From assembly GCA_012295275.1 (NCBI GenBank), contig CM022667.1:1550001-1614000 (forward strand): DNA of 64,000 nt. Reading direction: 5' to 3'. Source of the stretch: Chrysomallon squamiferum. Taxonomy: Eukaryota; Animalia; Mollusca. A model generated the notes under the pieces. That model was not told the origin of the DNA. It saw only the letters and a list, made by a program, of their open reading frames with translations, and searched no databases. Position numbers and translations under genes: made by a program. The first letter of the stretch is position 1; each line of letters starts with the position of its first letter. This document shows, one piece after another, positions 23,246 through 63,558 of the stretch.

Positions 23246-25682
23246 TTCAGAAGAACTAATAATTATTTAATAACAAAAACTGTTCAACAGAAAAAAGACA
23301 ATCAATTTAAAAAAAAAATTTGCTGAAGGTGTTAAAAAAAATAACATTTTAAAGATCATAAAATAAAATATAATAAAAATAAATATAAATTTTAATAATT
23401 AAAAATAAAAATAGAAATATGTAAACAAATGTTTAACAAAACTTACAGCATTAAACAGATGATACTCTGCAAATATTCCACCTGTGTAAGCTTCAAGCTT
23501 GTTGGTTGCCATGACACCACAACTGTAAACAAAACAGAAAATTCATTATATCTAAAATTCAACATGGGCGATGTCTGTCATTTGTTTTAAGAATTGTTAC
23601 TTCAGTCACTACCAACTGATCCTGCATTAAAATACTGCTTACTGTTGCTTCTGTTTAAACTGAAGAAACATTTTTGAAATAACTTAAAATCAAAAACAAA
23701 AAACAATAATTAATTTGTTTTAGCATAATCACTAAGAATTATGGGTAGTGAGATTATGTAAAACATTTTAAAACTGTGTTGCCAACTCTCTGAAATATGC
23801 TTAGGAATTTGTGAGATTAGTTTCAGATACTGATTAAAATGTTCCCTGACAATGTGAAAAATAAAATGGCTACCAAGGTTGACACTGTGTTGGTAACCAA
23901 AAGAAACTTGGCAAACAGACGCAGAAGAGCAGAAGAAGAAACTGCTTGAGGTAAATTTAATTAAGGATGTAATTTATATGTTTCTAGAATGATCTGTGTA
24001 AAATACAGTTATAGTCTGCAAACGATGGGCTGCTTCTGTATGTGCTTTCAGCATTACTAGTAAAAGAAGAGGTCAAAGGTTATATGACAAAGGTTAGTAT
24101 TTAAAATACCTGATTGGTCCATTTTTGTATATTTCTGCCATCATCTTTTTGCGACCACTAACAGTGCCATAATCAGACACCTTCCATCGAGTGAAGTTCT
24201 TCAGATTTTCACATTTGCCAAATGTCGTACATGTTCCACATTCATCAAAAGGATTACAAGCTGGAGGACAAATTATAAATTGAAATGAAATTATTGATAA
24301 TGAGAAGAATTATGAAAACAATTATCTGGGTGTTTTGTTTTTGTTTTATTAAAGTGTGTTTTATATTAAATGTATGTAATAACACTAAAATGATAACAAT
24401 TAATTTAAGCTCTTGAATTTAAATGGACTGCAATCTGGAGAACAAATTAATGATAAATTAAATTAAATTATTTATTGATAATAAACAGGAAAAACATTAA
24501 AAAATTTGCAGTAGATTTTACCAAATTCCAATTATCAAACAACAGTAATAAAACTGCAATGAAAAATAAAACAAAATACAATTAATATGCTGTTGATTCT
24601 CAATTTCATGCACCTTGGTTTTGGATAATTAGAACCAACCACCATTTCCCACTTAAAACCTTTAAATTATTCTAAGTCCCACTAAACAATGACAGCAACC
24701 ATCTCTCAACCCTCTTTCTATCAAAATAAGAGTAATTTTTACCACTGGCCTCGTTACCATTATAACCTAACAAACTTTACCCAACCTAGCCGACATTTTT
24801 CTACTGTAAATATTTCTTAACATATACTGCATAAGATTTGTTTCCATTGTTTTTATGTCTGTATAAATTATTCTGTATTATACAACTGTTAAGTGTGTAC
24901 TAAAGGTTCATGGTTTGGAAAATTTCAGGATTAATGTTTATTATACACAATTTTCCAGACTGATACTCCTCTCACAAATCTGTGAAACTGTGGGTCAGCA
25001 GTATATTCATTGTAAAAGAATCATAACAGGCCAAATATAATTACAGACATTTCTGAATGTGTTTCACATTCAGGCATATATATGTAACTATCTATCTATC
25101 TATATATATATATATATATCATATGTAAGTATTTTTGTATTTATCTATCTATATATACATCATGTCTATGTATGTTTGTATTTATCAATCTATATATATA
25201 TCATATGTATGTATGTTTGTATTTATCAATCTATATATATATATATCATATGTAAGTATGTTTGTATTTATCTATATCTATGTATGTATTTATCTATCTA
25301 TCTATTTATTTATATATATATCTCTATATATACACACCCTGATCTTTAGCTTGGTAGTTGTTGCAGGTTTCGTCGGGGATGCCCTTCTGATGTGCGTAGG
25401 CATAGACCCCAAGGTCACCTCCACCTTCGCAGCTGCCTGCATTGCCGCAGTCGATGACGTTCTGGACAGACAGGTAGGTTGACGGCCACTCTCCTTTCCT
25501 GAGGATGTTGATCCTGTCAGCCAGCGCACTGGTAGAACCCATAGCCCAACAAGAACCACAGTCTGAAAATTAAAAACGCAAAAATTATACTTTTAACATT
25601 TTTACATGACACACATATACACACAAACATATACATACATATATATATATATATATATGTATTAAAATTGTTCTTATTATGA

Positions 25683-28467: not shown

Positions 28468-28931
28468 TTTTTTTAATTTAAAAAAAAAAAAAAAAATAAT
28501 AATAATAATAAAAGAATAAATCAATCCACACGGCTCAAAATGCTCGTTTCTGCTAAGGAAAAATGCCTAGAAGCAATTTTGTATAATTCGATATGTTTTA
28601 TTGGTTTATGCAGATTATGTATACATAATTTCAAGCGAATAGTAAAATATATATATTTTTAAAATATTGTTTCATACAATTACTGGTAATAAAATGGCAG
28701 ACGTAGTATACCTTTAGTTTCCCCCCATCCGCTGGCCCAGCATTCTTTGTCAACAAACTCGTCAAGAGAAAAGCCAACAGGAAGACAAATCGGGGTAACG
28801 TAGTTGCTGGTAGTGTCCACGGGCGTTAACAACTGAAGCAGTGCAATGTCATGGAAATCATCCGCGTCAAATCGTGGGTGCTGCAGAGAAAAGTGGAATA
28901 TCAATGAATACAAAATCATAATGGCGGCCCC

Positions 28932-28971
<40 letters not shown>

Positions 28972-29025
28972 AGATTAAAAAAAAAAAAAAAAAAATAATA
29001 ATAAAAAAAAAAAAAAAAAGCATCA

Positions 29026-29056
<31 letters not shown>

Positions 29057-29362
29057 CTTCTTTTTTTTTTTTTCGGCAGGGAGAATGCCAAAGAAATAGA
29101 AATATATTAGGCTAATAATACCCGTGATAGGAATATATCGCCAACTAATATTTTTGCTAACACATGACGTTATGAGAACATAACCCATACAACCTTTATT
29201 ATATTTTTGACGAAATAATCTCTTTCTCTTCCACTTATTGCGTGACGATCCAGCTCTCCAGATCTGACGATAGTTGTCCATGGTCCGTATGTCTTGGCCC
29301 TATTTCAACAAATAAACAAAAACAAAAATAAGTAAAGTAGACTAACTTTTGTAATAATAATA

Positions 29363-29410
<48 letters not shown>

Positions 29411-29527
29411 TTAAATGATTTTTACCAGTTATGATTAATTATAATGACGAGGAAAACGACGACAAAACGAAATAAACTGCAGTTTAAGAAAAAAAAATGC
29501 CTGATCAACGATATAACGTTTAAGATT

Positions 29528-29564
<37 letters not shown>

Positions 29565-29582
29565 ATAATAAAAATAAATAAA

Positions 29583-29654
<72 letters not shown>

Positions 29655-30074
29655 AATAAATAAATTAAATAGGATTCGTCTACTTTAGGATGAACCCATA
29701 CATTTCTGGAATCACAACCAAACATTAAAAATCTGTGCTACTACTTACGTACGTACGCAGTGTCCAGCCGTTACTGCCCACAGAGGCGAAAGAAGGACAG
29801 CCCCACATCCGTAGTATTTTCCTTTGTAAATAATGTCCAGCATCCACGGCCACTTTCCCGGAGAGGCGTTTTGACCGTTTACTATCTTTAAATTGCGAAA
29901 TGTTCGCACACCACACTGACCTGCTAAAATAAACGAAATATTTTTAACATTTGTAATTTTTTTAATTTTTTTTTTTTTTTTTAAACACTGGTAATGAATT
30001 ATAACTGGAGTCTATTTAAATTTCATTCATGATCTAAAATTATTGAATTATTATTGTTTTAGTTTTGATTTCTG

Positions 30075-33008: not shown

Positions 33009-33233
33009 ATGGTAAGTTGTCTTAAGATTTTTCACACAGTCTTTAGTTTAAGATGCTAAACATATATATGAAGTTTTACAAGTTACGAACGTAATTTACA
33101 CTATGTAATGTAAAAAAGAACAAAAACCCAGAAATAATGCTGATTTATCAGAAACCTATTTGTTTGGGATTGTTATTTTGTAAAAACAATAAAAAGAACA
33201 AACGATGAAGCATACTCGAATACTGAAGGCGAC

Positions 33234-33266
<33 letters not shown>

Positions 33267-34693
33267 AATTCACACAAACTCTAGCTGGTTTTTGTTTTTG
33301 TTTTTGTTGTTGTGAAATACATGTTCTAAACAAGAACAAAATATATATATTTAAACTAAATACAAGTAACACAAATACGGCTGACTTTCAGCGTCCAGAA
33401 ACAGGTCCCGAAGTTTCAAAAGGTTCTGATCATCCAAAAGATATGGTCCCACTTTTTCATACACCCCGAGCCGGGAGGTCATTTGGGGTCAGACTGAAGC
33501 GAAGAAAACGGTTACTGCAGCGTCGCCGAATGATAGTAACTCAAGAATTTGTTCTGGGAATGATTGGATTTGTATTAATGATGGTTGTCACAGAGTTTCA
33601 CTTTGAGAAAGTATATCTAGACGAATCTAACATGGTTTTCTACATGAAGGTGATTATTTCAGTAACCACAGGAATGCTGCTCCTCGCTGTTCTTGCGTAT
33701 TACGTAACGGAAGTGCAGCTGAAGATGACGGAAAAAGACGTATTCGATTATCGGATGGTGGTGACAAAAACATTCGTCGTAAAACTGTGCGTGGAGTTAA
33801 TAGTGTGCTCTTTCCATCCTTTTCCCGGATATGTTAAGCTGCCGTTTCCAACCTTAGGCGGTGGAGAGTGGTATGTACCCACTGATGCTCTGTTCTCGAT
33901 CTTGATGTTACTTCGTCTGTATCTTGCGGTCCGGTTTGTCATTGTGCATAGCCACTGGATGATGAACTCATACCTGCAGGGAGTCGGGGCGTTGAACAAA
34001 GTCAACATCGATACGGGATTTATTCTGAAATGCCTCATGAGGGACTATCCTGGTACGCTTATTATAATGATAATGCTGGGGATACTGCTGATTAATTCTT
34101 GGGCAATGAGAGCCTGCGAATCGTTTTACGTGCCGGGTCACTATCAAACGGACTACTTCAATTCCATGTGGTTAGTGACTATAACTTTCCTAACCGTCGG
34201 TTACGGTGATATCTCGCCCAACAGTTACTGCGGCCGATTTGTAGCCGCAGAAACTGCCATGATAGGGGTGGGAACGACGGCGTTGCTGGTCACCGTAGTG
34301 ACGTCAAAATTTGAACTGACCAGGCCCGAACGTTACTTGCACATATTCTTTTTGCGAATGGATGTTCAGAGAAGAAAGAAGATGGTCGCAGCAGATATCG
34401 TGAAACTGGTTCTGAGAATTTGGCGCTGGCAGAAAATTAACAAACTGACAACCGGCCGGAGTCTGGCACTTCGCGTACAGCTGAACACGGCTGTACAGAA
34501 AATGAGACTGATCATTGAAGAAGACGAAAAACTCATCGAAGATAGCATCAACGTCATTGACGTGGGTATTAGCGTCATCAAGGCCGGTGTTATGTTAGAG
34601 AAAATGCGCTCGAAAGAGCTATTGGCAACACGTCTGAAGAGAATTAACGATAAACTGAATACAATACAGACAAGCCTGGGTATTTCGAAATAA
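33009..34693 (+). CDS. SK/KCNN-like K+ channel, divergent paralogue; ATG-only first coding exon 33009-33011 plus main exon 33392-34693
   Basis: AATATG|GTAAGT donor. The TTTCAG| acceptor at 33391 leaves 17 in-frame codons before the ORF-track Met. Pore WLVTITFLTVGYGDISPNSYCGR. Confidence 0.88.
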
Positions 34694-35937: not shown

Positions 35938-37284
35938 TAAATTCAGGTTCAGGCAGAACAGCAAAATGTGAATGACCCCAAAACTCCTCTTGTCAGTCAT
36001 AACGTAAAGGAATACTCCAGTATAAGCGCAAAGTCCGTTGATCTACCCCGACCTGGCAGGTCGTATGGCACCAGACTGAAGAGAAGGAAAAACCTGCTGG
36101 AACGTCGCAGAAAGATAGTCAACGTGGAATTCGCTCTGGCGATGACTGGATTAATGTTAATGCTCCTTGTGACAGAGTTGCACTTTGAGGATATATATCC
36201 AATTCATTCCGATGTCGCGTTTTACATCAAGCTGGCGATATCGATAACCACTGGGGTTTTACTGCTTGCTGTTCTGGCTTATCACATTACCGTAGTCAAA
36301 TTAAAAATGACAAACAAAAATATTTACGATTACCGGATGGTTGTTACGAAAACGTTCGTTTTTAAAGTTTCTATGGAACTCCTCGTGTGCGCCGTTCATC
36401 CGCTTCCAGGAAACATCAACGTGACGTTTGATACGATAACAGGAGAACAGGGGAGAGTTCCCGTGGACGCAGTTTTATCCATTCTCATGCTGCTGCGTTT
36501 CTACATTGTGATAAAGTTTATTATCGTTCACAGCCACTGGATGATCAACATATACATGCAGAGCGTTGGGGACCTGAACAAAGTCGACATCGACACTTGC
36601 TTTATCTTGAAGAGTCTCATAATGAACCATCCCATGCTGCTGACAGTGTCCATGATGCTAACGGTTCTGTTTATCAACACCTGGGCAATGAGGGCATGCG
36701 AATCGTACTACGTACCAGACAGCGATCAGAACGACCTTTTCAATTCAATGTGGCTCGTAACGGTGACCTTCCAACGGGGCTACGGGGATCTCTCGCCCAA
36801 CAGTTACTGCGGACGTTTCATAGCCGCGGAAACGGGTTTCATGGGACTAGGGATAACAGCACTGCTGGTGACGGTTGTGACGGCAAAATTCCAACAGACG
36901 AGATCCGAGCGCTATCTGCACGCGTTCATGGCCGAGTCTGAACTGCAGAAGAGAAAGGAAATCGCAGCTGCCGACATCATTAAGTTGGTGCTGAAGGTGT
37001 GGCTGTTGCATCGCCGTAACAAACTGACGCGTCAACTAAGTTTGCTGTATAGAATAAAACTGAACAAAACCGTGCAAAAACTGCGAGGAATTGATGACGA
37101 AATTACAAGCATCATCGAGAACAATACCGACATAATAGACGTGGGCATCAACATGATCACGGCGGGTACCGCACTGGAGAAAGTGCAGATACCAAAAGAT
37201 GATTTCAAAGAGGACGAGTTTGAAGCTCACATAAAAAGCATTAACAACCAATTAAATGCTATACAATCAAGTTTGCAACAATGA
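35470..37284 (+). CDS. SK/KCNN-like channel, array copy 1 (ATG exon 35470-35472 + 35947-37284) with altered pore TFQRGYGD
   Basis: AAAATG|GTAAGT and ATTCAG|GTTCAG give M-VQAEQQNVNDPK in frame. Near-identical to the 58277 copy except around the pore. Confidence 0.85.
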
Positions 37285-39925
37285 TGTTAAACCAGAGAAA
37301 TAAAAAAAATGGTTTATTTTCTCGTCCAAACAAATTTAAAAAAAAAGAAAAGAAAAAAAAAAGGAAGAAATAATAAATAAATAAATAATAATAATAAAAA
37401 TAATAATAATTTTATATTATTTATTTATTTATTTATTCATTTATTTATTTATTTTATTTATGCTAACAGAAGCCCTCATCTCGATATTACTGCCAATATT
37501 ACGGCAGCCACAATAGCGTATAAGTTCAGCATTGTTATTTTGGGTTATTTTTGGATACTGAACGATTGTTTCCAACGTTTTGTCAATTAAAACAGAAAGA
37601 AAATATGAAAACACATACAGTTTAATGAAAAAAACATGTATTTTGTTTTGCAATATTGAACTTAATACAAAATGTTAGTAAATGAAAGTAAGTTAAAAAC
37701 AATACCCATACGATATATGTATCTATGTATGTGACACAATAGATACAAACAAAATCTTAAAATGTCCAGTAAACTCTATTCCAAAGAAAACTCCAGTTCT
37801 AAACAAACAATACAATATTTTAGAAAAATACCACATCGAAAATTTCTAATATGTAGATAGATAAGTACATAAATCCACAGCAAATGAACAAATAGCACTA
37901 ATGTGTTAGCTTTTCAACAACACTGATCGTACTGCATTCAAGCAGATGATGCTCAAGTTGTTTTAAGAATATAGTTTCCTGTTTATGGAAAATGTAAACC
38001 TGAACATAAGAGATTCTATTCTGCCAATTAATTAAGAACAGCCATTTGTGTTGTGTGTGTATGTGTGTGTGTGTGTGTTGTCTTATTTACACTATCTACA
38101 TTTATCTCTTCTTCTTGTTGTACACTCTCTCTTTTAATATTGAATGTGCTCAGCATTCATTTATTTTCTTAATATTATTATCATTTTATCTTTATACATA
38201 TACATACTTCACACATATATTTATAATCTAGTATTCTTACAAGTGAAAAAATACACCTTTATGAATTAAAATCTGAAGATAACAAAATAATTTCCAAAAA
38301 TAACACATAGCCATTCACTGGCAGATAAACCAATAGTAGATAAAAAAACACACATCATTTTGCACAATGATTTTAAAATACCAAAGTTGGTGCTAATTTT
38401 TCAAAAAATAAAAAATCTATTACTTTTTCATTGATTTTACAGTCAGAATTATTTGTGAAATGGAATTCTCATTACTGATATGTTGCTAAAAATGATCAAC
38501 CAAATTTTAATCTGGTATTTTTAAATGCTCTTTGATTAATAAAGATAATTAAAATATATATATATATATAAAAGAAAATAACTTTAAAAACATAAATAAT
38601 GGAAGATTATTGTTATATTATTTTATTTATATCTTATCAACAACTACTATCAGTTTGACTGGCTATAATAAAAAAAAGAATTCTAAATGAACAATAAAAA
38701 AAGTAAAAATATAAAAGTTTAAAAAAAAAGGAAAAATAAAAAAGTTTAAAAAAAGGGAGTATCACGATAATGCTGAAGAGACACTTGATAATTATTACAT
38801 AACAGAGAATCAAAAAGTACTGTTAAGAAACAATGTATTTTACCTTTCAGTGTTCTCAAAACTGAAACCATGACAACATTTAAAGTTAGATATTAACAAA
38901 AACAGAAAGAAAGGAAAGAAATAAAAAGGAGAATGGGAAAAAATTAAAAGGAATATAAATAAAAAAAGAAAAAGCTGGATTGAAATAAAAGACAGGACAC
39001 AATTTTAAATATTCAAATACAAATTTTTTACAAACAAGGAACATATTTAGTACTATAAAAAATAATATGTAAAGTTAATTTCTATTCATTATCATTAATA
39101 TTCTGAAAGTCAAAAAGTCAAAAAAACAAAACAAAATAACAACAAAAAAACAACAACACAATAATAATAATAATTAAGACACTAAATGATTATCCTGAAA
39201 GATATTAATAATAACATTATTTCTCTCCAAGTTAGAAAAATGGGAGTTCTGTCCTAACTAAAAATTGAATTCCATTATATTATGCCAGCTGGGGAAATTG
39301 GGAAACCTCTCATAAAAGAATCTCGAGTTTCATTATATCAGGTTAGCTTGGAAAAGTGGAAAACCTCTCTTAGAAGAACATTGGATTTGCTTTTTATCAT
39401 TACATCTGTGTTTAATTAAATCAGTCTAGCTCAAAATAGCAGACATCTGTAAACAAATGAATCTTAACATTATACAGCTTATAAAGAAAATAGCTTTAAA
39501 AAATAAATGATAGCATAAATAATGGGAGATTATTGTTATTGTTATTTTATTTATATCTTATCAATAACTACTAACAATTTGACTGGCTATAATAAAAAAA
39601 AGGAATTCTAAATGAACAACAAAAAAAGTAAAAATAAAAGTTTAAAAAAAGGGAGTATCACAATTGTCAAGAGACACTTGATAGTTATTACATAACAGAT
39701 AATCAAAAAGTACTGTTAAGAAACAATGTATTTTACCTTTCAGTTTTCTCAAAACTGAAACCATGACAACATTTAAAGTTAGATATTGACAAAAACAGAA
39801 AAACAAAGAAGCGGAAAAAAAATAAAAATAAAAATAAAAGAAAGAAAAGAATGAAAAAGGAGAATGAAAAAAAATTAAAAGGAATATAAATAAATAAAAA
39901 AGAAAAAGCTGGATTGAAATAAAAC

Positions 39926-40478
39926 GTGGCTCAATTCAATGTGGCTCGTAGCGGTGACCTTCCTCACTGTCGGCTACGGGGATCTCTCGCCCAACAGTTA
40001 CTGCGGACGTTTCATAGCCGCGGAAACGGGTTTCATGGGAGTAGGGATAACAGCACTGCTGGTGACGGTTGTGACGGCAAAATTCCAACAGACGAGATCC
40101 GAACGCTATCTGCACGCATTCATGGCCGAGTCTGAACTGCAGAAGAGAAAGGAAATCGCAGCTGCCGACATCATTAAGTTGGTGCTGAAGGTGTGGCTGT
40201 TGCATCGCCGTAACAAACTGACGCGTCAACTAAGTTTGCTGTATAGAATAAAACTGAACAAAACCGTGCAAAAACTGCGAGGAATTGATGACGAAATTAC
40301 AAGCATCATCGAGAACAATACCGACATAATAGACGTGGGCATCAACATGATCACGGCGGGTACCGCACTGGAGAAAGTGCAGATACCAAAAGATGATTTC
40401 AAACAGGACGAGTTTGAAGCTCACATAAAAAGCATTAACAACCAATTAAATGCTATACAATCAAGTTTGCGACAATGA
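39926..40478 (+). pseudogene. 5'-truncated SK channel fragment (pore to C-terminus), part of a ~3.2-kb partial duplication
   Basis: Begins abruptly at SMWLVAVTFLTVGYGD directly after AT-rich repeat-unit sequence. No S1-S5. Downstream sequence repeats 37284 onward with an offset of 3194. Confidence 0.85.
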
Positions 40479-42139: not shown

Positions 42140-43469
42140 TGAAAAAGGAGAATGAAAAAAAATTAAAAGGAATATAAATAAACAAAAAAGAAAAAGCTGG
42201 ATTGAAATAAAACAAAGGAAACAATTTTAAACATTCAAATACAAATTTTTCATATTATACTCATATTAAAAAATATTTAAATAAACATTCAATGTATTTA
42301 GATGATACTTGACAAATTTTTTTCACAAACAAGGAACATTTTAGTTCTATAAAAAAAATAATATATAAAGTTAATTTCTGTACATTCATGTAGTGATATA
42401 TTCATTATTATTAATATTCTAAAAGTCAAAAAGTCAAAAAAAAAAAAAAAAAAAAAATAAAATAAAAAAAAATAATAATTAAGACACTAAATGGTTATCT
42501 TGAAAGATATTAATAATAACATTATTTCTCTCCAAGTTAGAAAAATGGGAGTTCTCTCCTAAATAAAAATTGAATTCCATTATATTATGCCAGTTGGGGA
42601 AATTGGAAAACCTCTCATAAAAGAATCTCGAGTTTCATTATATCAGGTTAGTTTGGAAAAGTGGAAAACCTCTCTTAGAAGAACATTGGATTTGCTTTTT
42701 ATCATTACATCTGTGTTTAATTAAATCAGTCTAGCTCAAAATAGCAGACATCTGTAAACAAATGAATCTTAACATTATACAGCTTAGAAAAGTGAAAGTG
42801 ATTCTACGTTTGTAGATGTAATATACATTTTAGTAAGTCTATTCAGATTTGAGTTTATGTCCAGCCTGTTTACAAGTGTCAAAGTTCTTTTACTTAATAT
42901 ACTGAAATCTGCAATGAAATTCATGGGTATAGCTATTTAAATATACAGTTCTGATCCTCTCTGTATTTGTTTAATACCTAAATCTTTTCTGACAACTGAT
43001 GACTTAAGAAGATTTTTAATTTTGTAAAAATGTATTCCATGTGAAGATGTTAAGTATTACTGTTGACATCAGAAGTAGAATTAACATTCAAGAAATGGAA
43101 ACAATTCTCAGTCCACTTAAAATTTGTTAACTTTATTAACATTGTTTTTACAAATAAAAGCATCTACTTACACTCCATAAATAAAACTTGACCACAGTTG
43201 CTTAACAATTAAATAATAAAATCACCTTCTTTTCTTTACTGACAAACAGTATGTATATAATACACATATAAAAAAAATAATCTAGTGGTCTGGCTACTTT
43301 AAAAATAAAATAAAACAACAGTGAAATGCAAACATGCATTTTCCCAATTATTTCAGTATAATAACTGGTTTGTGGAAGAGGATTAGGGACATGATATGCT
43401 GCCTTTAATGAAACTCAAGATTCTTTTTGGAGTTTTTTTTTTTACTCAAGAGAGATAATCAGATAAATC

Positions 43470-44904
43470 TCATCGGCCTACAGCATCACATGCTTCAGCA
43501 AGCTTCTGCAGTGTGACAGGATGATACTGACTTTTCCACTGTCGTAGCATTTGGTAAACCACTTCGTACTGACCGTCTGCTCTATATTGCATTTCGAAAT
43601 TGTCCAGTTGTCCTTCTGAAAGCCCCAGCTTACGACCTAACATCCTCCATTTTTTACCTATGTGAGTAGCAATGTAGCCCATTTGATCCTGTGTAGGTTC
43701 AGCTGTTGAAGCTTAAAATAACAAGAAGACAAATTTGATTGGCCAGTGAAAATAAATTTGTGCCAAACAAATAATATAAAAATATATATATATAAAAAAA
43801 ATAATGAAAGTTTTTAATTATGAATTATGTATACACACAGGAACACACACATACACACCCACACACACACACACATATAAACACACATGCATACACACAC
43901 TCATACATGCACTGAAACTGGCAAATACACAAACATGCATATAAAAGTGCATACAGATATGTATGTATGTATGTATATGTAAACACACATTAACACACAC
44001 AGTTCTGGCTTATTCTCTCCAAAACAAAGCATTAAAAGTCAATTTGGTAAAAAAAAAATATTAAGACAGCAGATGCAGCTTTATAAGATAAATGATATTC
44101 AATCACATTTACCTAATTTCAAAGACTGTGAAAGTATGAAGCACTGTAAAACAGGGGCTGACTAAACTATTACTAGTATTAATGTTACTACTACTAGTAC
44201 TACTTCTAATACTACTACTATTATTATTATTATTATTATTATTAGATCAAGTTAAACTGCTATTTGTCTGACTGAAACTCCTCTGTCTATCTTTAAGATT
44301 TGTTTAAGAAATTTGAATTACTGATGGAATAAAATTTTTTTAAAAAGATATAAATAATAATATCTTTATAACATACCACGGTCTTTAGAAGGGGTGGCAT
44401 CATCATCAAGATCCTGGAATGATACAAGAAGAAAACTTTTATAAAATTGAAAGGTAACTGTTAATTATCTGAAATTTTGCAAGAACAGACTCCAAATAGC
44501 TACATGATTTGAAAAAAAATAGTAATAATAATAAAATAAAATAAAATAAAACCAAAAATACAAATTAAACTGTTTTAAGTGAATGTATATGTATGTGTAT
44601 ACATGAAAAGAAATCCATACAAAACATGTATACTTTTTTATGTTCTTTTGTTGTCGTCTTTTTAAAACTTTTTATACATATATTTTGTTAAATGGACATA
44701 ATATCAGCATAACATATATGATATTCAAAATCTTTCTAAAACCAAATGCTCATACTTAATTTGGATATATATATATTATTATTATTATTATTATTATTAT
44801 ATTATTTTTTCTGTCTCAAGAAATACAATCTGATTAAAAATGTTTAAGCTTATTGATCATAGATACTGTTTATAAATACTTACATTATCTCTCCTGCTTG
44901 CCAT
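43470..44904 (-). CDS. IMD/RIPK1-like death-domain adaptor, copy A: lacks the RHIM exon, DD prematurely stopped (possible pseudogene)
   Basis: Exons 44884-44904 (accATGG; MASRRDN), 44377-44413 (DLDDDATPSKDR) and 43470-43711 (DD: IGKKWRMLGRKLGLSEGQLD...YQMLRQWK...LAEAC). A GGA>TGA change removes GDLSDYLS. Confidence 0.75.
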
Positions 44905-46800: not shown

Positions 46801-47000
46801 NNNNNNNNNNNNNNNNNNNNNNNNNNNNNNNNNNNNNNNNNNNNNNNNNNNNNNNNNNNNNNNNNNNNNNNNNNNNNNNNNNNNNNNNNNNNNNNNNNNN
46901 NNNNNNNNNNNNNNNNNNNNNNNNNNNNNNNNNNNNNNNNNNNNNNNNNNNNNNNNNNNNNNNNNNNNNNNNNNNNNNNNNNNNNNNNNNNNNNNNNNNN
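46801..47000. other. Assembly gap (200 N) inside the tandem array
   Basis: Run of n. Confidence 1.
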
Positions 47001-47667: not shown

Positions 47668-49016
47668 TTAAATTCAGGTTCAGGCAGAACAGCAAAATGT
47701 GAATGACCCCAAAACTCCTCTTGTCAGTCATAACGTAAAGGAATACTCCAGTATAAGCGCAAAGTCCGTTGACCTACCCCGACCTGGCAGGTCGTATGGC
47801 ACCAGACTGAAGAGAAGGAAAAACCTGCTGGAACGTCGCAGAAAGATAGTCAACGTGGAATTCGCTCTGGCGATGACTGGATTAATGTTAATGCTCCTTG
47901 TGACAGAGTTGCACTTTGAGGACATATATCCAATTCATTCCGATGTCGCGTTTTACATCAAGCTGGCGATATCAATAACTACTGGGTTTTTACTGCTTGC
48001 TGTTCTGGCTTATCACATTACCGAAGTCAAATTAAAAATGACAAACAAAAATATTTACGATTACCGGATGGTTGTTACGAAAACGTTCGTTTTTAAAGTT
48101 TCTATGGAGCTCCTCGTGTGCGCCGTTCATCCGCTTCCAGGAAACATCAACGTGACGTTTGATACGATAACCGGAGAACAGGGGAGAGTTCCCGTGGACG
48201 CAGTTTTATCCATTCTCATGCTGCTGCGTTTCTACATTGTGATAAAGTTTATTATCGTTCACAGCCACTGGATGATCAACATATACATGCAGAGCGTTGG
48301 GGACCTGAACAAAGTCGACATCGACACTTGCTTTATCTTGAAGAGTCTCATGATGAACAATCCCATACTGCTGACAGTGTCCATGATGCTAACGGTTCTG
48401 TTTATCAACACCTGGGCAATGAGGGCATGCGAATCGTACTACGTACCAGACAGCGACCAGAACGGCCTTTTCAATTCAATGTGGCTCGTAGCGGTGACCT
48501 TCCTCACTGTCGGCTACGGGGATCTCGCCCAACAGTTACTGCGGACGTTTCAAAGCCGCGGAAACGGGTTTCATGGGAGTAGGGATAACAGCACTGCTGG
48601 TGACGGTTGTGACGTCAAAATTCCAACAGACGAGATCCGAACGCTATCTGCACGCATTCATGGCCGAGTCTGAACTGCAGAAGAGAAAGGAAATCGCAGC
48701 TGCCGACATCATTAAGTTGGTGCTGAAGGTGTGGCTGTTGCATCGCCGTAACAAACTGACGCGTCAACTAAGTTTGCTGTATAGAATAAAACTGAACAAA
48801 ACCGTGCAAAAACTGCGAGGAATTGATGACGAAATTACAAGCATCATCGAGAACAATACCGACATAATAGACGTGGGCATCAACATGATCACGGCGGGTA
48901 CCGCACTGGAGAAAGTGCAGATACCAAAAGATGATTTCAAAGAGGACGAGTTTGAAGCTCACATAAAAAGCATTAACAACCAATTAAATGCTATACAATC
49001 AAGTTTGCGACAATGA
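47138..49016 (+). pseudogene. SK-like channel array copy with a 2-bp deletion frameshift just after GYGD (or a sequencing error)
   Basis: ATG exon 47138-47140, main exon from 47678. Reads GATCTCGCCC at 48521 versus GATCTCTCGCCC in sister copies. The ORF splits into 47699-48673 and 48573-49016. Confidence 0.8.
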
Positions 49017-50081: not shown

Positions 50082-51708
50082 ATTACTTTTTCATTGATTT
50101 TGCAGTCAAAATTATTTGTGAAATGGAATTCTCATTAATGTTAAGTTGCTAAAAATGATCAACCAAATTTTAACCTGGTATTTTTAAAAAGCTCTTTGAT
50201 CAATAAAGATAACTTAAAAAAAAATATAAAATAAAATAAAATAAAATAAAATTATATATCTATAAAGAAAATAACTTTAAAAAATAAATGATGGCATAAA
50301 TAATGGGAGATTATTGTTATTGTTATTTTATTTATATCTTATCAATAACTACTAACAATTTGACTGGCTATAATAAAAAAAAGGAATTCTAAATGAACAA
50401 CAAAAAAAGTAAAAATAAAAGTTTAAAAAAAGGGAGTATCACAATTGTCAAGAGACACTTGATAGTTATTACATAACAGATAATCAAAAAGTACTGTTAA
50501 GAAACAATGTATTTTACCTTTCAGTTTTCTCAAAACTGAAACCATGACAACATTTAAAGTTAGATATTGACAAAAACAGAAAAACAAAGAAGCGGAAAAA
50601 AAATAAAAATAAAAATAAAAGAAAGAAAAGAATGAAAAAGGAGAATGAAAAAAAATTAAAAGGAATATAAATAAATAAAAAAGAAAAAGCTGGATTGAAA
50701 TAAAACAAAGGAAACAATTTTAAATATTCAAATACAAATTTTTCATATTATGCTCATATTAAAAAATATCTAGTAAATATTTTTTATTACATTCAATGTA
50801 TTTAGATGATACTTGACTTAAATTTTCCCAGCTACATTTTTAAATTCACAAACAAGGAACATTTTTAGTTCTATAAAAAATAATATATAAAGTTAATTTC
50901 TGTACATTCATGTAGTGATATATTCATTATTATTAATATTCTAAAAGTCAAAAAGTCAATAAAAAAAAAAAAATAATTAAATCAGTTTAATTAAATCAGT
51001 CTAGCTCAAAATAGCAGACATCTGTAAACAAATGAATCTTAACATTATACAGCTTAGAAAAGTGAAAGTGATTCTACGTTTGTAGATGTAATATACATTT
51101 TAGTAAGTCTATTCAGATTTGAGTTTATGTCCAGCCTGTTTACAAGTGTCAAAGTTCTTTTACTTAATATACTGAAATCTGCAATGAAATTCATGGGTAT
51201 AGCTATTTAAATATACAGTTCTGATCCTCTCTGTATTTGTTTAATACCTAAATCTTTTCTGATGACTTAAGAAGATTTTTAATTTTGTAAAAATGTATTC
51301 CATGTGAAGATGTTCAGTATTACTGTTGACATCAGAAGTAGAATTAACATTCAAGAAATGGAAACAATTCTCAGTCCACTTAAAATTTGTTAACTTTATT
51401 AACATTGTTTTTACAAATAAAAGCATCTACTTACACTCCATAAATAAAACTTGACCACAGTTGCTTAACAATTAAATAATAAAATCACCTTCTTTTCTTT
51501 ACTGACAAACAGTATGTATATAATACACATAGAAAAAAAAATAATCTAATGGTCTGGCTACTTTAAAAATAAAATAAAACAACAGTGAAATGCTAACATA
51601 CATTTTCCCAATTACTTCAGTGTAATGACTGGTTTGTGGAAGAGGATTAAGGACATGATATGCTGCCTTTAATGAAACTCAAGATTCTTTTTGGAGTTTT
51701 TTTTTTAC

Positions 51709-54020
51709 TCAAGAGAGATAATCAGATAAATCTCCTTGGCCTACAGCATCACATGCTTCAGCAAGCTTCTGCAGTGTGAAACAATCAGACTGACTTTTCC
51801 ACTTTAGTAGCATTTGGTAAACCACTTCGCACCTACCCTCTGTGCGATATTCTATTTTCAAATTGTCCAGTTGTCCGTCTGAAAGCCCCAGCTCACGACC
51901 TAACTGCCCCCATTTACTACCTATGTTATCAGCAATGTATTTCATTTGATCCTGTGTAGGTTCAGCTGCTGAAGCTGAAAATAACAAGAAGACAAATTTG
52001 ATTGGCCAGTGAAAATAAATTTGTGCCAAACAAATAATATAAAAATATATATATATAAAAAAAATAATGAAAGTTTTTAATTATGAATTATGTATACACA
52101 CAGGAAGAGAGATAATCAGATAAATCTCCTCGGCCTACAGCATCACAAGCTTCAGCAAGCTTCTGCAAGGTGACAGGATGATACTGACTTTTCCACTGTC
52201 GTAGCATTTGGTAAACCACTTCGTACTGGCCCCCTATTGTATGTTGCATTTTGAAATTGTCCAGTTGTTCGTCTGAAAGCCCCAGCTTACGACCTAACTG
52301 CCTCCATTTACTACCTATGTGAGTAGCAATGTAGGCCATTTGCTCGTGTGTAGGTTCAGCTGTTGAAGCTGAAAATAACAAGAAGACAAATTTGATTGAC
52401 CAGTGGATATAAATTTGTGCCAAACATCAAATATAAAAAAAAAGTATATATATATATAAAATAATAAAAGTACTGAAATAAAATAGTTATTAATTATGAA
52501 TTACGTATACAGTCAGGAACATATATAGATACATACGTACATACACACATACATACACACGCTCATACATGCACTGAAACTGGAAAATACACAAACATAT
52601 AAAAGTGCATACAGATATGTATGTATGTACGTATAGGCAAACACACATAAAGACACAGTTCTGGCTTATTCTCTCCAGGAAAGAAAGTATTAAAAATCAG
52701 TTTGGTAAAAAAAAAAAATTAAGACAGCAGATGCAGCTTTATAAGATAAATGATATTCAATCTGAATGAACTGTGTATAAAAACACTCACTTGTAATTGG
52801 TTTTTTTCGTGCTTTCTTAGATTTCTTTTTGCCAGAACCCGTATACATTTCATTGTTGTTTCCAATCTGAATTGTAGAAGTTTCTGGGTCACCAACAAAT
52901 ACCCTTCTATAACTGCCATCAGGTCCTAAAGTAAAAACAAATATAAAGTAAACTCTAAAAATCTTGAAGTTGCAATCAGATTCAAGATAGTGTTGTATTC
53001 AAGATATTAATCATATGTAACAGAAGAAAAAATAATTACAAATAAAATCGATTGTTCGCGGTCTGATAGTCTACATTCACAATATTATTAAGAACTCCTT
53101 ATATTCAGTGAGTTCACCTAATTTCAAAGACTGTGTAAGTATGAACCACTGTAAAACAGGGATTGAGATAATTAAAAAAACCTAAGAGGAGAAAGTAAAA
53201 ATAAAAATAAAACCCATTTTTTGTGGTACGGTAATGTACATTGATATTATTATTAAAAACTTGTATTCAGTGAATGTTTATCCTTTCTTTCTTTTTTTAA
53301 ATATATTTTAAATCACATTTACCTAATTTCAAAGACTGTGTAAGTATGAACCACTGTAAAACAGGGGCTGACTAAACTATTACTACTATTAATGTTACTA
53401 CTACGAGTACTGCTTCTACTACTACTACTATTATTATTATTATTATTATTAGATCAAGTTAAATTGCTATTTTTCTGACTGAAACTCCTCTGTCTATCTT
53501 TAAGATTTGTTTAAGAAATTTGAATTACTGATGGAATAAAAAAAATTAAAAAAGATAGAAATAATAATAACTTTATAACATACCACGGTCTTCCATATAA
53601 AATGGTGGTTTCATATTTGGTCCATTAAAAGGGGTGGCATCTTCATCTAGATCCTGGAATGATACAAGAAGAAAACTTTTATAAAATTGAAAGTTAACTA
53701 TTAATTATCTGAAATTTTGCAAAGACAGACCCTAAATAGCTACATGATTTGAAAAAAATAGTAATAATAATAAAATAAAATAAAATAAAATAAAACCGAA
53801 AAGAAATATACCAAAAATACAAATTTTAAGTGAATGTATATGTATGTGTATACATGAAACGAAATCCATACAAAACATGTATACTTTTTTATGTTCTTTT
53901 GTTGTTGTCTTTTTAAAACTTTTTATACATATGTTTTGTTAAATGGACATAATATCAGCATAACAAGCATAATATTCAAAATCTTTCTAAAACCAAATGC
54001 TCATACTTAGTTTGGTTATA

Positions 54021-54058
<38 letters not shown>

Positions 54059-54160
54059 TATTTTTTCTGTCTCAAGAAATACAATCTGATTAAAAATGTA
54101 TAAGCTTATTGATCATAGATACTGTTTATAAATACTTACATTATATCTTCTGCTTGCCAT
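51709..54160 (-). CDS. IMD/RIPK1-like adaptor, copy B: caspase site/IBM + RHIM-like motif + two tandem death-domain exons
   Basis: Exons 54140-54160 (MASRRYN), 53584-53653 (DLDEDATPFNGPNMKPPFYMEDR), 52791-52925 (PDGSYRRVFVGDPETSTIQIGNNNEMYTGSGKKK...), DD1 52088-52368, DD2 51709-51974. All are GT-AG and phase-compatible. Confidence 0.82.
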
Positions 54161-54361
54161 GGTTCCTCGTAATGTAAGACTGCCTAAAAATAGTTCTGAC
54201 CAAAGATAAAAACATGAACTATGTTGAAACACAAACAACAACTACAGAGCTTTTGTGTTTCCTATCACTGACTGAGCACATTTTGGCAGTAAATGAAAAG
54301 CTATCTACCATTTATGGTCAATAATGCCTGTTGAATCAATTAGCAGTATTTTAAATAAGAA

Positions 54362-54416
<55 letters not shown>

Positions 54417-54841
54417 AAATAAAAGATATAAAATAAAATAAAAAATTATAAATATAGATTCTTTGAATAAACAAAAATAAAACCCTGTTACATACTATAC
54501 TGTCATTAAATATATATATATATATATATTTTTATAAACTGTAAAGATGTTTTCAATTTATTTAATTAGTTCAATACACACTCATACTGTCTACAAATTC
54601 GGTTTATTTTAAGACATATTTTTATGTTTGTCTTTAGAACCATTATGAAAACTTACCAGCCAAAATGGTGGAGGGAGGACATAAAAAATCAAATACAAAT
54701 AATAATAATAATAAATTAAAACAATTAAAAATATACCACCTTCCCAACAACTAAGCATATTTATTTTTCTAAATACTTCATTATAAAAATATCTGATTTT
54801 GAATTTTTTCTGAAAAGTAATCTGTCTTTGAGAAGATATTT

Positions 54842-54938
<97 letters not shown>

Positions 54939-56803
54939 GTTTTGTTGTTGTTATTTGCTTTCATGATTTTATTTCAAACATGATTATCCGAAATAAGCTT
55001 AAGATAATATAATTGTTGTAAATATTAAAAATAGTTATTTCTGATAGAATGTTATAAAAGTTTAGCTTTGTTTCATTAAGTAAATTATAAAACAGAACAG
55101 AAGAAATAAATACTTACAAATTAAAATAATAAAAATAAACATTAAAAAATCATTATGTAAATATTAAAATAGCATGACCACTTGTCCAGTTTGCTTTACT
55201 CTGATCGTGTTGTCACCTATCCTATTTTAAAAATAGTAGCGTCATTGTATAATCTATATCGTATCTCAAATTAATTAATATCTAGAAAGTGACTGCAAGC
55301 ATTTATCGTTATTAGATGAGTGAAACAATGCGAAAGTATATTTAAAAATTAAAAAACAAAAAATTAAGTTTGAAAACAGTTATATTTAAAAAAATGTATT
55401 TGAAAAACAAAAAAAAAGAATAATAAAATTTCGTGTATTGTTATCCACAAAACTTTTCCCAACTTCCTTGATTTTATGTTTCGGTTAAAAAAGAAATCAA
55501 GAAAAAAAAAACAATATTTGAAACTTCGAAAGCTCTATTCAGATCTGAGACAAATGTAATTATTTAAAATAATTATGTGAATTTAACATTGTACTTACAC
55601 GACAATTTTAGACTGTTGAATTATTATTATGATTTTTTTTTTTTAAATGCAACAACGACAACAAATATATTTAAAAATTAAAAAACAAAAAATTAAAAAA
55701 AGATTAAAAAGAAGAAGAAAAAAGAGAAAGAAATGAAAACGCGGGAAATATGATTGAGAAGATATTTTAAATCTATTTTAGGAGATTACTTTATTATTAT
55801 TATTTGATTATTATTATTATGTTGTTGTTGTAGTAGTAGTTGTTATTTCAAACATGATTAACCCAAATTGCTTAAGATAATATAATTGTTATAAAAGATT
55901 AGTTCTTTTTCATTATTAAGTAAATTATAAAACAGAACAGAACAAATAAAAATAAATACTTTAAAATTAAAATAATCAAAATAATAATCAAAAATCATTA
56001 TGTAACTAATATGACCAGTTGTCGAATTTCCCTAACGCTGATCGTGTTTTCACCTATCCTATTTTAAAAATCGCAGTTTCGTTGAATAATCGCTATAATA
56101 TATGGAAATTAATTAAAACCTAGAATGTTATTGTAAACATTTAATTATCAGTAATACATTATCAGCGAAGCAATGCCAAAGTGAAAGTAAGAAAAAATAA
56201 AATAAAATAATTATGTATGAATAACAGTTATACCTGTTTGGAGGTGAAGATCGTACAAATTATCTACGTTTTATATCTATTTTAGGAGATTACTTTATTA
56301 CGGAAGAATAACCTGGAAAATTTCGTTTATTTTTAACCACAAAAAATGTCCATACGTAGGTCCTGATAATCGAGACTACAAATATTTGACTGGTACTCAT
56401 GATTTCATTTTGCTCTGTTTACATTTGAGACGAATGTAATTATTTTGAATAATTAGGTGAATTTAACATTTGTACTTAGACGACTGTTTTAACCCTTAAT
56501 TGTTGAATTATTATTATTAAAAAGAAAAAAAAAAGAAGAGACAAATATTGATGCCTTAAAGGGATAGAAATTATTTTATTCTATCTTTCCTTTTTTTCTC
56601 TTTTTATTCCGTTAGTTTTAACGATATTTTGGAGTAACTCAAATATTATTCACGCTTATTTCTACACATTTGTGCCTGATAGACTGGATTTGCATGGATT
56701 ATTCTCAATAGACGTGCTACACTGAGAATAACAGCGATGACAAAACAACAGAAATAATAATAACAATGACAATAACAGTAACAAAATTTAGTGCATAACC
56801 ATA

Positions 56804-58142: not shown

Positions 58143-59596
58143 AGGATAGAGAAAAAGGAAAGACAACAAAAACGGCAATTGTCTAAGATGGTTTTTTTTA
58201 AATAGATCTTTCTCACTCATAATCATGATTCAGGATAATAATAATTTAAATTCAGGTTCAGGCAGAACAGCAAAATGTGAATGACCCCAAAACTCCTCTT
58301 GTCAGTCATAACGTAAAGGAATACTCCAGTATAAGCGCAAAGTCCGTTGACCTACCCCGACCTGGCAGGTCGTATGGCACCAGACTGAAGAGAAGGAAAA
58401 ACCTGCTGGAACGTCGCAGAAAGATAGTCAACGTGGAATTCGCTCTGGCGATGACTGGATTAATGTTAATGCTCCTTGTGACAGAGTTGCACTTTGAGGA
58501 CATATATCCAATTCATTCCGATGTCGCGTTTTACATCAAGCTGGCGATATCAATAACCACTGGGATTTTACTGCTTGCTGTTCTGGCTTATCACATTACC
58601 GATGTCAAATTAAAAATGACAAACAAAAATATTTACGATTACCGGATGGTTGTTACGAAAACGTTCGTTTTTAAAGTTTCTATGGAGCTCCTCGTGTGCG
58701 CCGTTCATCCGCTTCCAGCAAACATCAACGTGACGTTTGATACGATAACCGGAGAACAGGGGATAGTTCCCGTGGACGCAGTTTTATCCATTCTCATGCT
58801 GCTGCGTTTCTACATTGTGATAAAGTTTATTATCGTTCACAGCCACTGGATGATCAACATATACATGCAGAGCGTTGGGGACCTGAACAAAGTCGACATC
58901 GACACTTGCTTTATCTTGAAGAGTCTCATGATGAACCATCCCATGCTGCTGACAGTGTCCATGATGCTAACGGTTTTGTTTATCAACACCTGGGCAATGA
59001 GGGCATGCGAATCGTACTACGTACCAGACAGCGATCAGAACGGCCTTTTCAATTCAATGTGGCTCGTAGCGGTGACTTTCCTCACTGTCGGCTACGGGGA
59101 TCTCTCGCCCAACAGTTACTGCGGACGTTTCATAGCCGCGGAAACGGGTTTCATGGGAGTAGGGATAACAGCACTGCTGGTGACGGTTGTGACGTCAAAA
59201 TTCCAACAGACGAGATCCGAGCGCTATCTGCACGCGTTCATGGTCGAGTCTGAACTGCAGAAGAGAAAGGAAATCGCAGCTGCCGACATCATTAAGTTGG
59301 TGCTGAAGGTGTGGCTGTTGCATCGCCGTAACAAACTGACGCGTCAACTAAGTTTGCTGTATAGAATAAAACTGAACAAAACCGTTCAAAAACTGCGAGG
59401 AATTGACGACGAAATTACAAGCATCATCGAGAACAATACCGACATAATAGACGTGGGCATCAACATGATCACGGCGGGTACCGCACTGGAGAAAGTGCAG
59501 ATACCAAAAGATGATTTCAAAGAGGACGAGTTTGAAGCTCACATAAAAAGCATTAACAACCAATTAAATGCTATACAATCAAGTTTGCGACAATGA
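57685..59596 (+). CDS. SK/KCNN-like K+ channel, intact array copy (ATG exon 57685-57687 + 58256-59596)
   Basis: Uninterrupted ORF with six TM segments, WLVAVTFLTVGYGDLSPNSYCGR and a CaM-binding-like region. Confidence 0.9.
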
Positions 59597-62226: not shown

Positions 62227-63558
62227 TCAAGAGAGATAATCTGATAAATCTCCTCGGCCTACAGCATCACAAGCTTCAGCAAGCTTCTGCAATGTGACAG
62301 GATGATACTGACTTTTCCACTGTCGTAGCATTTGGTAAACCACTTCACCTAACTGACCCTCTGCTATATATTGCATTTTGAAATTGTCCAGTTGTCCTTC
62401 TGAAAGCCTCAGCTTACGACCTAACTTCCTCCATAGAACTCCTATGTTATCAGCAATGTAGTCCATTTGATCCTGTGTAGGTTCATCTGTTGAAGCTTAA
62501 AATAACAAGAAGACAAATTTGATTGGCCAGTGAAAATAAATTTGTGCCAAACAAATAATATAAAAATATATATATATAAAAAAAATAATGAAAGTTTTTA
62601 ATTATGAATTATGTATACACACAGGAACACACACACACACACACACACACATATAAACACACATGCATACACACACTCATACATGCACTGAAACTGGAAA
62701 ATACACAAACATACATATGAAAGTGCATGTATGTATGTATGTATATGTAAACACACATAAACACACACAGTTCTGGCTTATTCTCTCCAGGAAGCAAAGT
62801 ATTAAAAATCAATTTGGTTAAAAAATATTAAGACAGTGCATGCAGCTTTATAAGATAAATGATATTCAATCTGAATGAACTGTGTATAAAAACACTCACT
62901 TGTAATTGGTTTTTTTCGTGGTATCTTAGATTTCTTTTTGCCAGAACCTGCATACATTACATTGTTGTTTCCAATCTGAATTGTAGAAGTTTCTGGGTCA
63001 CCAACCAATACCCTTCTATAACTGCCATCAGGTCCTAAAGTAAAAACAAATATAAAGTAAACTCTAAAAATCTTGAAGTTGCAATCCGATTCAAGATAGT
63101 GTTGTATTCAAGATATTAATCATATGTAACAGAAGAAAAAAGAATTACAAATAAACAATTGTTTGTGGTGTGATGATCTACATTCACAATATTATTAAGA
63201 ACTCCTTATATTCAGTGAGTTCACCTAATTTCAAAGACTGTGTAAGTATGAACCACTGTAAAACAGGGATTGACTAAACTATTACTAGTATTAATGTTAC
63301 TACTACGAGTACTACTTCTAATACTACTACTATTATTATTATTATTATTAATATTAGATCAAGTTAAACTGCTATTTGTCTGACTGAAACTCCTCTGTCT
63401 ATCTTTAAGATTTGTTTAAGAAATTTGAATTACTGATGGAATAAAAAAATTTAAAAAAGATATAAATAATAATATCTTTATAACATACGACAGTCTTCCA
63501 TGATAAATGGTGATTTCATATATGGTCCATTAGAAGGGGTGGCATCTTCATCTAGATC
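62227..63558 (-). CDS. IMD/RIPK1-like adaptor, copy C (start exon lies beyond the window)
   Basis: Exons 63489-63558 (DLDEDATPSNGPYMKSPFIMEDC), 62900-63034 (…TSTIQIGNNNVMYAGSG…) and 62227-62495 (DD with a 1-aa insertion, EGQLGEVV). Confidence 0.82.

What the first reader, a model, noticed from the sequence alone, without database searches (positions are those of the whole stretch)
51709..54160. Hidden IMD-like adaptor: caspase site + IAP-binding motif + RHIM + death domain
Seen: splicing four short exons gives MASRRYN-DLDED/ATPF-...-TSTIQIGNNNEM-...-death domain, about 165 aa with no kinase domain. The ORF track shows only fragments of it. Known: Drosophila IMD is cut by DREDD at LEKD/A to expose an IAP-binding motif and has a cryptic RHIM plus a C-terminal DD; ATPF is the IBM of processed caspase-9; IQIG is the RIPK1 RHIM core. 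Inference: a minimal IMD/RIPK1-type amyloid signalling adaptor with the full IMD logic but a canonical RHIM.
Basis: partly seen in the sequence, partly recalled or inferred. Interest (0 to 1): 0.85.

Follow-up and report, generated by a model that had tools for sequence, protein, structure and literature searches.

The report
Snail IMD-like immune adaptor gene
A spliced, kinase-less gene, likely from a marine snail, carries a predicted protease cut site, an amyloid-type RHIM motif and one or two death domains, so it likely works like the insect immune adaptor IMD, which a 2023 paper lists as not found in molluscs.

Summary
The gene is real. The exons have canonical splice sites, and RNA contigs (4 runs, 1 study) show the E1-E2, E2-E3 and E3-to-death-domain (DD) joints. 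Many of those contigs come from a sister copy at 62-64 kb. RNA splices it onto the distal DD, predicting a 252-aa two-DD form besides 163/168-aa single-DD forms. No kinase lies in the window. The nearest named relatives are kinase-less mollusc proteins (Gigantopelta, abalone, limpet, pearl oyster). They share the RHIM tetrad, and three share the N-terminal LxxD|AxP site (3 of 15 non-insect relatives, 0.17 expected), as insect IMD does. The F of ATPF is not conserved; the sister copy has ATPS. The DD is closest to RIPK1 among solved structures. Trees cannot decide between IMD orthology and separate kinase loss from RIPK1. Best reading: a caspase-gated, IAP-recruiting, RHIM-polymerising NF-kB adaptor of a widespread molluscan family. 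Cleavage, IAP binding and amyloid formation are untested. NCBI already labels abalone members 'immune deficiency-like'. New variant of a known kind; interest 0.5.

The parts
54140..54183 (-). Exon 1: 23 nt of leader after an AG acceptor at 54185-54184, ATG at 54160, 7 codons. An unseen upstream exon is likely.
   Evidence: Sequence. E1-E2 joint in runs X2 and X3; one contig begins at 54183. Relatives start 8-13 residues before the same Asp.
53584..53653 (-). Exon 2 (70 nt), holding the predicted caspase site and IAP-binding motif
53627..53650 (-). LDED|ATPF (residues 9-16): predicted caspase cut after D12, which would expose an IAP-binding N-terminus
   Evidence: Sequence; conservation; function untested
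52791..52925 (-). Exon 3 (135 nt): RHIM followed by a lysine-rich linker (K63-K72)
52861..52872 (-). RHIM core tetrad IQIG (residues 49-52)
   Evidence: Pfam RHIM E 0.02, 14.9 bits, below cut-off; tetrad shared by relatives
52102..52368 (-). Proximal death-domain exon D1. It splices at a GTGTGT donor to D2; if read through, it stops at 52088 (168-aa form).
   Evidence: Pfam Death E 3.3e-14; joint 51974/52102 in X1 and X2
51975..52101 (-). 127-nt GT-AG intron between the two DD exons. Its donor derives from duplicated intron sequence at the breakpoint of a 394-bp tandem duplication.
51709..51974 (-). Distal death-domain exon D2 with stop codon; 71% amino-acid identity to D1
   Evidence: Pfam Death E 6.8e-13
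62227..63558 (-). Sister copy with one DD, LDED|ATPS and IQIG; its exon 1 lies beyond the window end; expressed
   Evidence: 16 of 18 RNA variants match it
43446..44904 (-). Degenerate sister copy: shortened exon 2, RHIM exon absent, in-frame stop near the end of the DD

Best explanation
This is a spliced, kinase-less gene with a RHIM motif and RIPK1-type death domains that likely works like insect IMD: a caspase would cut after Asp12, the new Ala-Thr-Pro end would recruit an IAP ubiquitin ligase, and the RHIM would polymerise to relay an NF-kB signal. Shown: the exon structure, splicing in RNA, two DD exons, the absence of a kinase, and the recurrence of the cut-site pattern and RHIM tetrad in molluscan and insect relatives. 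Inferred from Drosophila IMD and RIPK1: the DD binds a FADD-like adaptor that brings a caspase-8/DREDD-like protease. Also inferred: the IAP ubiquitinates lysines of the linker (K63-K72), TAK1/IKK then activate a Relish/NF-kB factor, and the RHIM forms amyloid with itself or with an unknown RHIM-bearing receptor or RIPK1. At this copy a 394-bp exon duplication removed the stop of the first DD and supplied a donor. The result is a predicted 252-aa form with two DDs that are 71% identical, which may raise avidity or widen partner range.
For: RNA joints. DD closest to RIPK1 among solved structures (E 2.6e-8; family profile E 1.8e-23 against 2.9e-13 for FADD). Best single-domain hit among 1.84 billion representatives: a 166-aa Gigantopelta protein, 53% identical in the DD, with the same layout. 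D|AxP within the first 55 residues occurs in 3 of 15 non-insect RHIM+DD relatives (0.17 expected) and 4 of 8 insect-clade proteins (0.08 expected); D|A occurs in 9 of 15 (2.24 expected). In a hand-picked alignment, 15 of 20 have Asp in one column followed by A, S or G (pattern fitted afterwards). Insect IMD conserves LxxD/A as the DREDD site and IBM (PMC6626034, passages). ATPF and AVPS are the caspase-9 and HTRA2 peptides used as IAP binders (PMC7810383, passages). A kinase-free zebra-mussel RIPK1 C-terminus activates NF-kB in human cells in a RHIM-dependent way (PMC12119088, passages). Shrimp IMD forms amyloid (PMC10268257, passages). Gastropods have 22-89 IAPs (PMC13159474, passages).
Against: The full D|AxP is absent from 12 of 15 non-insect relatives; several caenogastropod-type ones have D|AE. 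The motif was not significantly more frequent in RHIM-bearing than in RHIM-less DD proteins (4 of 22 against 1 of 22, Fisher p 0.34; loose pattern 8 against 2, p 0.069). IBM consensus is loose: about 5% of human N-termini are IBM-like. The RHIM is below Pfam's cut-off, and exon 3 finds no RIPK1/3 chain in the PDB. The trees do not join molluscan and insect sequences. No genome is held, so FADD, caspase-8, IAP and receptor partners were not checked. A nemertean imd did not respond to Vibrio (PMC9835746, passages).
Confidence: 0.6

Rival explanations
1. A kinase-less RIPK1 offshoot that signals as a RHIM+DD scaffold only. The Asp-Ala site would be a relic or an inactivating cut, not an IAP switch.
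For: Kinase-bearing RIPK1 with RHIM and DD exists in spiralians. Amphioxus RIPK1b has LETD|AIT just after its kinase. A tree holding gastropod sequences with kinase RIPK1 is not rejected (p-AU 0.082). Many molluscan relatives lack the Pro.
Against: A cut at residue 12 removes only 12 residues and no domain, so its plain effect is a new N-terminus. Pro at position 3 is kept in gastropod, bivalve and insect proteins well above chance.
Confidence: 0.2
2. A decoy or brake. It would cap RIPK1 RHIM/DD filaments, or act after cleavage as a Smac-like IAP antagonist that promotes apoptosis.
For: It keeps both RIPK1 interaction modules without the kinase. ATPF is the caspase-9 IBM. A RHIM-bearing inhibitor, Pirk, exists in flies (PMC4262963, first quarter of the text). 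The copies evolve fast (dN/dS 1.0-5.5 among DD exons).
Against: The layout and order of motifs equal those of the activating adaptor IMD. The kinase-free mussel RIPK1 C-terminus activates NF-kB rather than blocking it.
Confidence: 0.13
3. The family is functional, but this two-DD copy is a redundant duplicate under relaxed selection, or partly an assembly artefact of uncollapsed haplotypes.
For: dN/dS differs from 1 in only 1 of 4 DD pairs tested (p 0.013 uncorrected, against the broken copy). The 44-kb copy is broken. Neighbouring SK-like copies have breaks. A 200-N gap lies at 46801-47000. Most compared RNA variants match the 63-kb copy.
Against: All five exons are open and in phase. The D1-D2 joint is in two RNA runs, on contigs with 2 mismatches to D2, whereas the other DD copies differ from D2 at 12-14 places over the same stretch.
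Confidence: 0.07

Closest known systems
Insect and crustacean IMD (e.g. Drosophila, Tenebrio, Schistocerca, Stomoxys)
   Same: No kinase; N-terminal xxxD|A site with IBM-like residues; RHIM-type motif; C-terminal RIPK1-type DD
   Different: Canonical IQIG rather than a cryptic tetrad (though Schistocerca IMD-like also has LQIG). Shorter (163-168 aa against 240-280 for insect IMD). Two-DD isoform. No clade with insect IMD shown.
Molluscan kinase-less 'RIPK1-like' / 'immune deficiency-like' database proteins (Gigantopelta XP_041376100, Haliotis XP_046375274, Patella KAK6185536, Pinctada KAK3091125)
   Same: Same layout and size. DD groups with Gigantopelta and Haliotis (96/82).
   Different: All have a single DD. 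Their names are as the sources wrote them; I found no functional study.
RIPK1 (human; kinase-bearing spiralian RIPK1 of Lingula, Owenia, Dreissena)
   Same: IQIG-type RHIM followed by a DD; best solved-structure match
   Different: No kinase domain here
FADD / TRADD
   Same: Death domain
   Different: No DED or TRADD-N match in exons 2-3; weaker DD match than RIPK1

Membership tests
IMD | C-terminal death domain related to RIPK1 | tested here: met
IMD | No kinase domain | tested here: met
   No tblastn hit of 4 RIPK-type kinase domains in the window; start matches kinase-less relatives. The 5' end of the transcript was not seen.
IMD | N-terminal LxxD|A caspase-site pattern followed by IBM-like residues (sequence level) | tested here: met
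   LDED|ATPF; above chance in relatives; pattern from PMC6626034
IMD | RHIM or cryptic RHIM between the cut site and the DD | tested here: met
   IQIG at 49-52, shared by relatives. Pfam score is below cut-off, but only 1 of 77 relatives showed a Pfam RHIM hit, and amphioxus RIPK1b did not.
IMD | Common descent with arthropod IMD to the exclusion of kinase RIPK1 | tested here: inconclusive
   Deep forks open; mollusc+insect p-AU 0.105, gastropod+kinase RIPK1 p-AU 0.082
IMD | Cleavage by DREDD/caspase-8, IAP binding and ubiquitination | not testable with these tools
   Needs biochemistry
IMD | Amyloid formation and action between a microbial receptor and Relish | not testable with these tools
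   Needs ThT/SDD-AGE and knockdown; no genome held to look for partners
RIPK1 | N-terminal Ser/Thr kinase domain | tested here: not met
RIPK1 | RHIM tetrad plus C-terminal DD | tested here: met
FADD | N-terminal death effector domain | tested here: not met
   No DED match for the exon 2 and exon 3 frames

The most novel reading that the evidence does not exclude
Molluscs have a true IMD: a kinase-less sister of RIPK1 with the whole caspase-cut/IAP-binding switch and a canonical RHIM, coexisting with kinase RIPK1. The split into RIPK1 and IMD, and the IBM switch, would then date to the protostome ancestor. In this snail the gene is diversifying by tandem duplication into a two-death-domain adaptor.
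Probability: 0.4. Interest if true: 0.7.

Novelty: new variant of a known kind. Interest (0 to 1): 0.5.

Why it matters
A 2023 paper states that the Imd adaptor has not been found in molluscs or brachiopods (PMC9835746), and a 2022 survey places the RHIM in vertebrates only (PMC9573974). A molluscan family with cut site, IBM, canonical RHIM and DD would fill that gap. It would link insect IMD to the C-terminal half of RIPK1 and offer a client for the expanded molluscan IAPs. It can be tested with three point mutants in a standard NF-kB reporter. The two-DD exon duplication is a clean example of a domain being doubled by a breakpoint that removes a stop codon and creates a donor. Against high interest: the architecture is a known kind, and databases already name abalone members IMD-like.

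Tried and rejected
Word-indexed homologue searches with the DD exon found nothing. The alignment search returned only 4 proteins: 3 of its own inputs and a fish FADD. The HMMER search of representatives supplied the relatives. Exon 3 alone gave no RHIM structure hit. ESM Atlas gave only generic DD clusters, with Mollusca, Chordata or Arthropoda commonest. No genome is held. Earlier scan findings: none in 3 look-ups. An N-terminal kinase extension was rejected. Four GTRAGT donors lie upstream (57016, 55598, 55117, 54656), but no listed RNA joint links them to exon 1. Positive selection on the DDs was not established. Two 31-nt exon-like repeats in intron 2 are used by no listed RNA joint. No fold or complex was predicted: the DD is clear from sequence, and the IBM-bearing exon is shorter than the complex tool's minimum. 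RNA reads could be laid only on 51000-55300, so the region further upstream, a possible first exon and the sister loci were not examined. Of the supplements of PMC12119088, 19 of 31 files were not searched and the rest had no hit for six taxon names. Supplements of PMC9835746 and PMC6626034, which may hold alignments bearing on novelty, were not read.

Full report
Observation. The window is AT-rich animal DNA. On the minus strand, three short exons (54160-54140, 53653-53584, 52925-52791) have GT donors and AG acceptors in compatible phases. They lead to two death-domain exons with the same acceptor, D1 from 52368 and D2 from 51974, both matching Pfam Death (E 3.3e-14, 6.8e-13). Joining to D1 and reading to its stop gives 168 aa. 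LDED|ATPF lies at residues 9-16 and IQIG at 49-52. In 200,000 shuffles of the N-terminal 78 residues the site pattern arose in 0.08%, the tetrad in 0.044% and both in none.

RNA. Five runs held part of the stretch; the four RNA runs, from one study and kept as contigs, were laid. The E1-E2 joint appears in 2 of 4 runs. The E2-E3 joint has CT..AC ends in 1 of 4 and a sister-copy form in 2 of 4. Loose ends equal to the end of E3 sit behind 51974 (2 runs) and 52368 (1 run). A joint 51974/52102 with CT..AC ends and a 33-nt side occurs in 2 of 4 runs: D1 is spliced to D2 over a 127-nt intron, which predicts a 252-aa two-DD protein. The contigs that fit this joint by length have 2 mismatches to D2, while the other DD copies differ from D2 at 12-14 places there, so this form belongs to this copy. 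Table 3 showed 40 variant rows and withheld 42. I compared the 18 shown rows that lie in D1, E3 and E2: 16 match the sister copy at 62-63 kb. I left out one row in D2 and 21 in the 3' region. Much of the E1-E2-E3 support therefore comes from the sister copy or other alleles. The E3-to-D2 contigs in one run differ from this E3, so skipping of D1 at this locus is not proven. The base that decides F or S at position 16 was not among the rows shown.

How the second DD arose. D1 and D2 start 394 bp apart. The end of D1 runs, through a shared TT, into sequence identical to the intron upstream of the DD exon in the 62-kb copy. The breakpoint thus removed the stop codon and supplied a GTGTGT donor in the right phase. 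D1 and D2 are 71% identical in amino acids.

Surroundings. The gene lies head to head with a long SK-channel-like ORF in a unit of about 10 kb repeated three times. The 62-64 kb copy has one DD, LDED|ATPS and IQIG. The 43-45 kb copy lacks the RHIM exon and has a stop in the DD. dN/dS among DD exons is 1.0-5.5, against 0.40 for two SK copies. Only 1 of 4 DD pairs tested departs from neutrality (p 0.013, uncorrected, involving the broken copy), so fast change is seen but positive selection is not shown. Four RIPK-type kinase domains find nothing in the window. An AG acceptor 24 nt before the ATG, where one contig begins, suggests an unseen leader exon.

Relatives. phmmer of D1 against 1.84 billion representatives gave 367 hits, 150 listed. 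The best single-domain hit is a 166-aa Gigantopelta aegis protein (53% in the DD) with LVED|AIPE and IQIG; I infer from this that the window is gastropod. Others with the same layout come from Haliotis (named 'immune deficiency-like'; VETD|ASAE, LQIG), Patella (LDED|AVPS, VQIG), Pinctada (LEED|ACPS, LQIG), Mercenaria, Pomacea, Nucella and the annelid Paralvinella. Insect IMDs were also hit. From the 150 I hand-picked 44 with one DD, an N-terminal extension and no other curated domain. The strict pattern [LIV]xxD|AxP occurred in 4 of 22 with a RHIM-type tetrad (0.03 expected) and 1 of 22 without; that one groups with insect IMD. The difference between the two classes is not significant (p 0.34; loose pattern 8 against 2, p 0.069). 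Split by lineage, D|AxP is in 3 of 15 non-insect (0.17 expected) and 4 of 8 insect-clade proteins (0.08 expected), and D|A in 9 of 15 (2.24 expected). In a hand-picked alignment of 20, 15 have Asp in one column followed by A, S or G; that wider pattern was fitted after seeing the data. So an Asp-small-residue site is widespread in the family, the full IBM-like form is kept in a subset across gastropods and bivalves, and the Phe is not conserved.

Phylogeny. On 89 DD columns the four window DDs form one group (100/96) that joins Gigantopelta, Haliotis and two unnamed proteins (96/82). Insect IMD forms its own group (96/86), and deeper forks are open (bootstrap not fully settled). Adding the RHIM segment, neither a mollusc+insect clade (p-AU 0.105) nor a gastropod+kinase-RIPK1 clade (p-AU 0.082) is rejected. 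Against solved structures the DD is closest to RIPK1. Orthology to IMD is undecided.

Mechanism. In insects DREDD cuts IMD at LxxD/A and the new end binds DIAP2 (PMC6626034, passages). ATPF and AVPS begin the caspase-9 and HTRA2 peptides used as IAP ligands, but the consensus is loose (PMC7810383, passages). RHIM-like motifs in IMD and invertebrate proteins are known (PMC4262963, first quarter plus passages). Shrimp IMD forms amyloid (PMC10268257, passages). Kinase-bearing RIPK1 exists in zebra mussel, and its kinase-free C-terminus activates NF-kB through the RHIM (PMC12119088, passages). A cut at residue 12 would remove no domain, so its simplest purpose is to make an IAP-binding end. I therefore favour a caspase-gated, IAP-recruiting, RHIM-polymerising NF-kB adaptor (0.6). 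The rivals are a plain scaffold with a relic site (0.2), a decoy or IAP antagonist (0.13) and a decaying duplicate (0.07). Every biochemical step is inferred. The roles of FADD, ubiquitinated lysines and TAK1/IKK are carried over from the fly pathway as summarised.

Novelty. PMC9835746 (passages) says Imd had not been found in molluscs or brachiopods and reports a nemertean imd, described by its DD. PMC9573974 (passages) finds RHIMs only in vertebrate RIPKs. Ten library searches (seven of them aimed at invertebrate IMD or RHIM) listed no paper whose title or abstract start describes a molluscan IMD with cut site, IBM and RHIM. I read only passages of PMC9334734, PMC8917759, PMC13159474, PMC13506858, PMC5437397 and 10.1101/010942, the library lacks most subscription journals, and databases already give the IMD-like name to abalone members. 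Verdict: a real gene, a new variant of a known kind (canonical RHIM, molluscan, two-DD isoform), interest 0.5.

Noticed in passing
window 33227-34693, 35941-37284, 39918-40478, 47672-49016, 58250-59596 (+) and 8953-10299 (-): Cluster of long-ORF SK-type potassium-channel-like genes (Pfam SK_channel for the three scanned). The 36-kb copy reads QRGYGD where others read TVGYGD, the 48-kb copy is split over two frames, and the 40-kb copy is partial.
   Followed up: partly
window about 35000-64000: A unit of about 10 kb (SK-like gene head to head with the adaptor gene) is repeated three times, with long blocks at 88-95% identity and a 200-N gap at 46801-47000. Real tandem copies are likely; uncollapsed haplotypes are not excluded.
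   Followed up: partly
window 53118-53148 and 53323-53353 (-): Two copies of a 31-nt stretch flanked by AG and GT inside intron 2, with one copy in each sister locus. It is exon-like but frame-shifting, and no listed RNA joint uses it.
   Followed up: partly
window 54656 (-): Strong donor upstream of exon 1, conserved in the 45-kb copy; a candidate end of an untranslated first exon with a short out-of-frame ATG. No RNA joint is listed.
   Followed up: partly
P0060 residue 371 (amphioxus RIPK1b): LETD|AIT just after the kinase, which resembles the IMD cut site and suggests IMD corresponds to the post-kinase half of RIPK1.
   Followed up: no
P0021, P0022, P0030, P0049: A subgroup that includes Nucella and Pomacea proteins shares an extra N-terminal C[ST]DD motif and has D|AE or D|SV instead of D|AxP; possibly a variant without IAP binding.
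   Followed up: no
window 28683-30011 (-), 25327-25569 (-), 12580-12903 (+): Exons of a trypsin-like protease, a papain-family protease and a CUB-domain protein.
   Followed up: no
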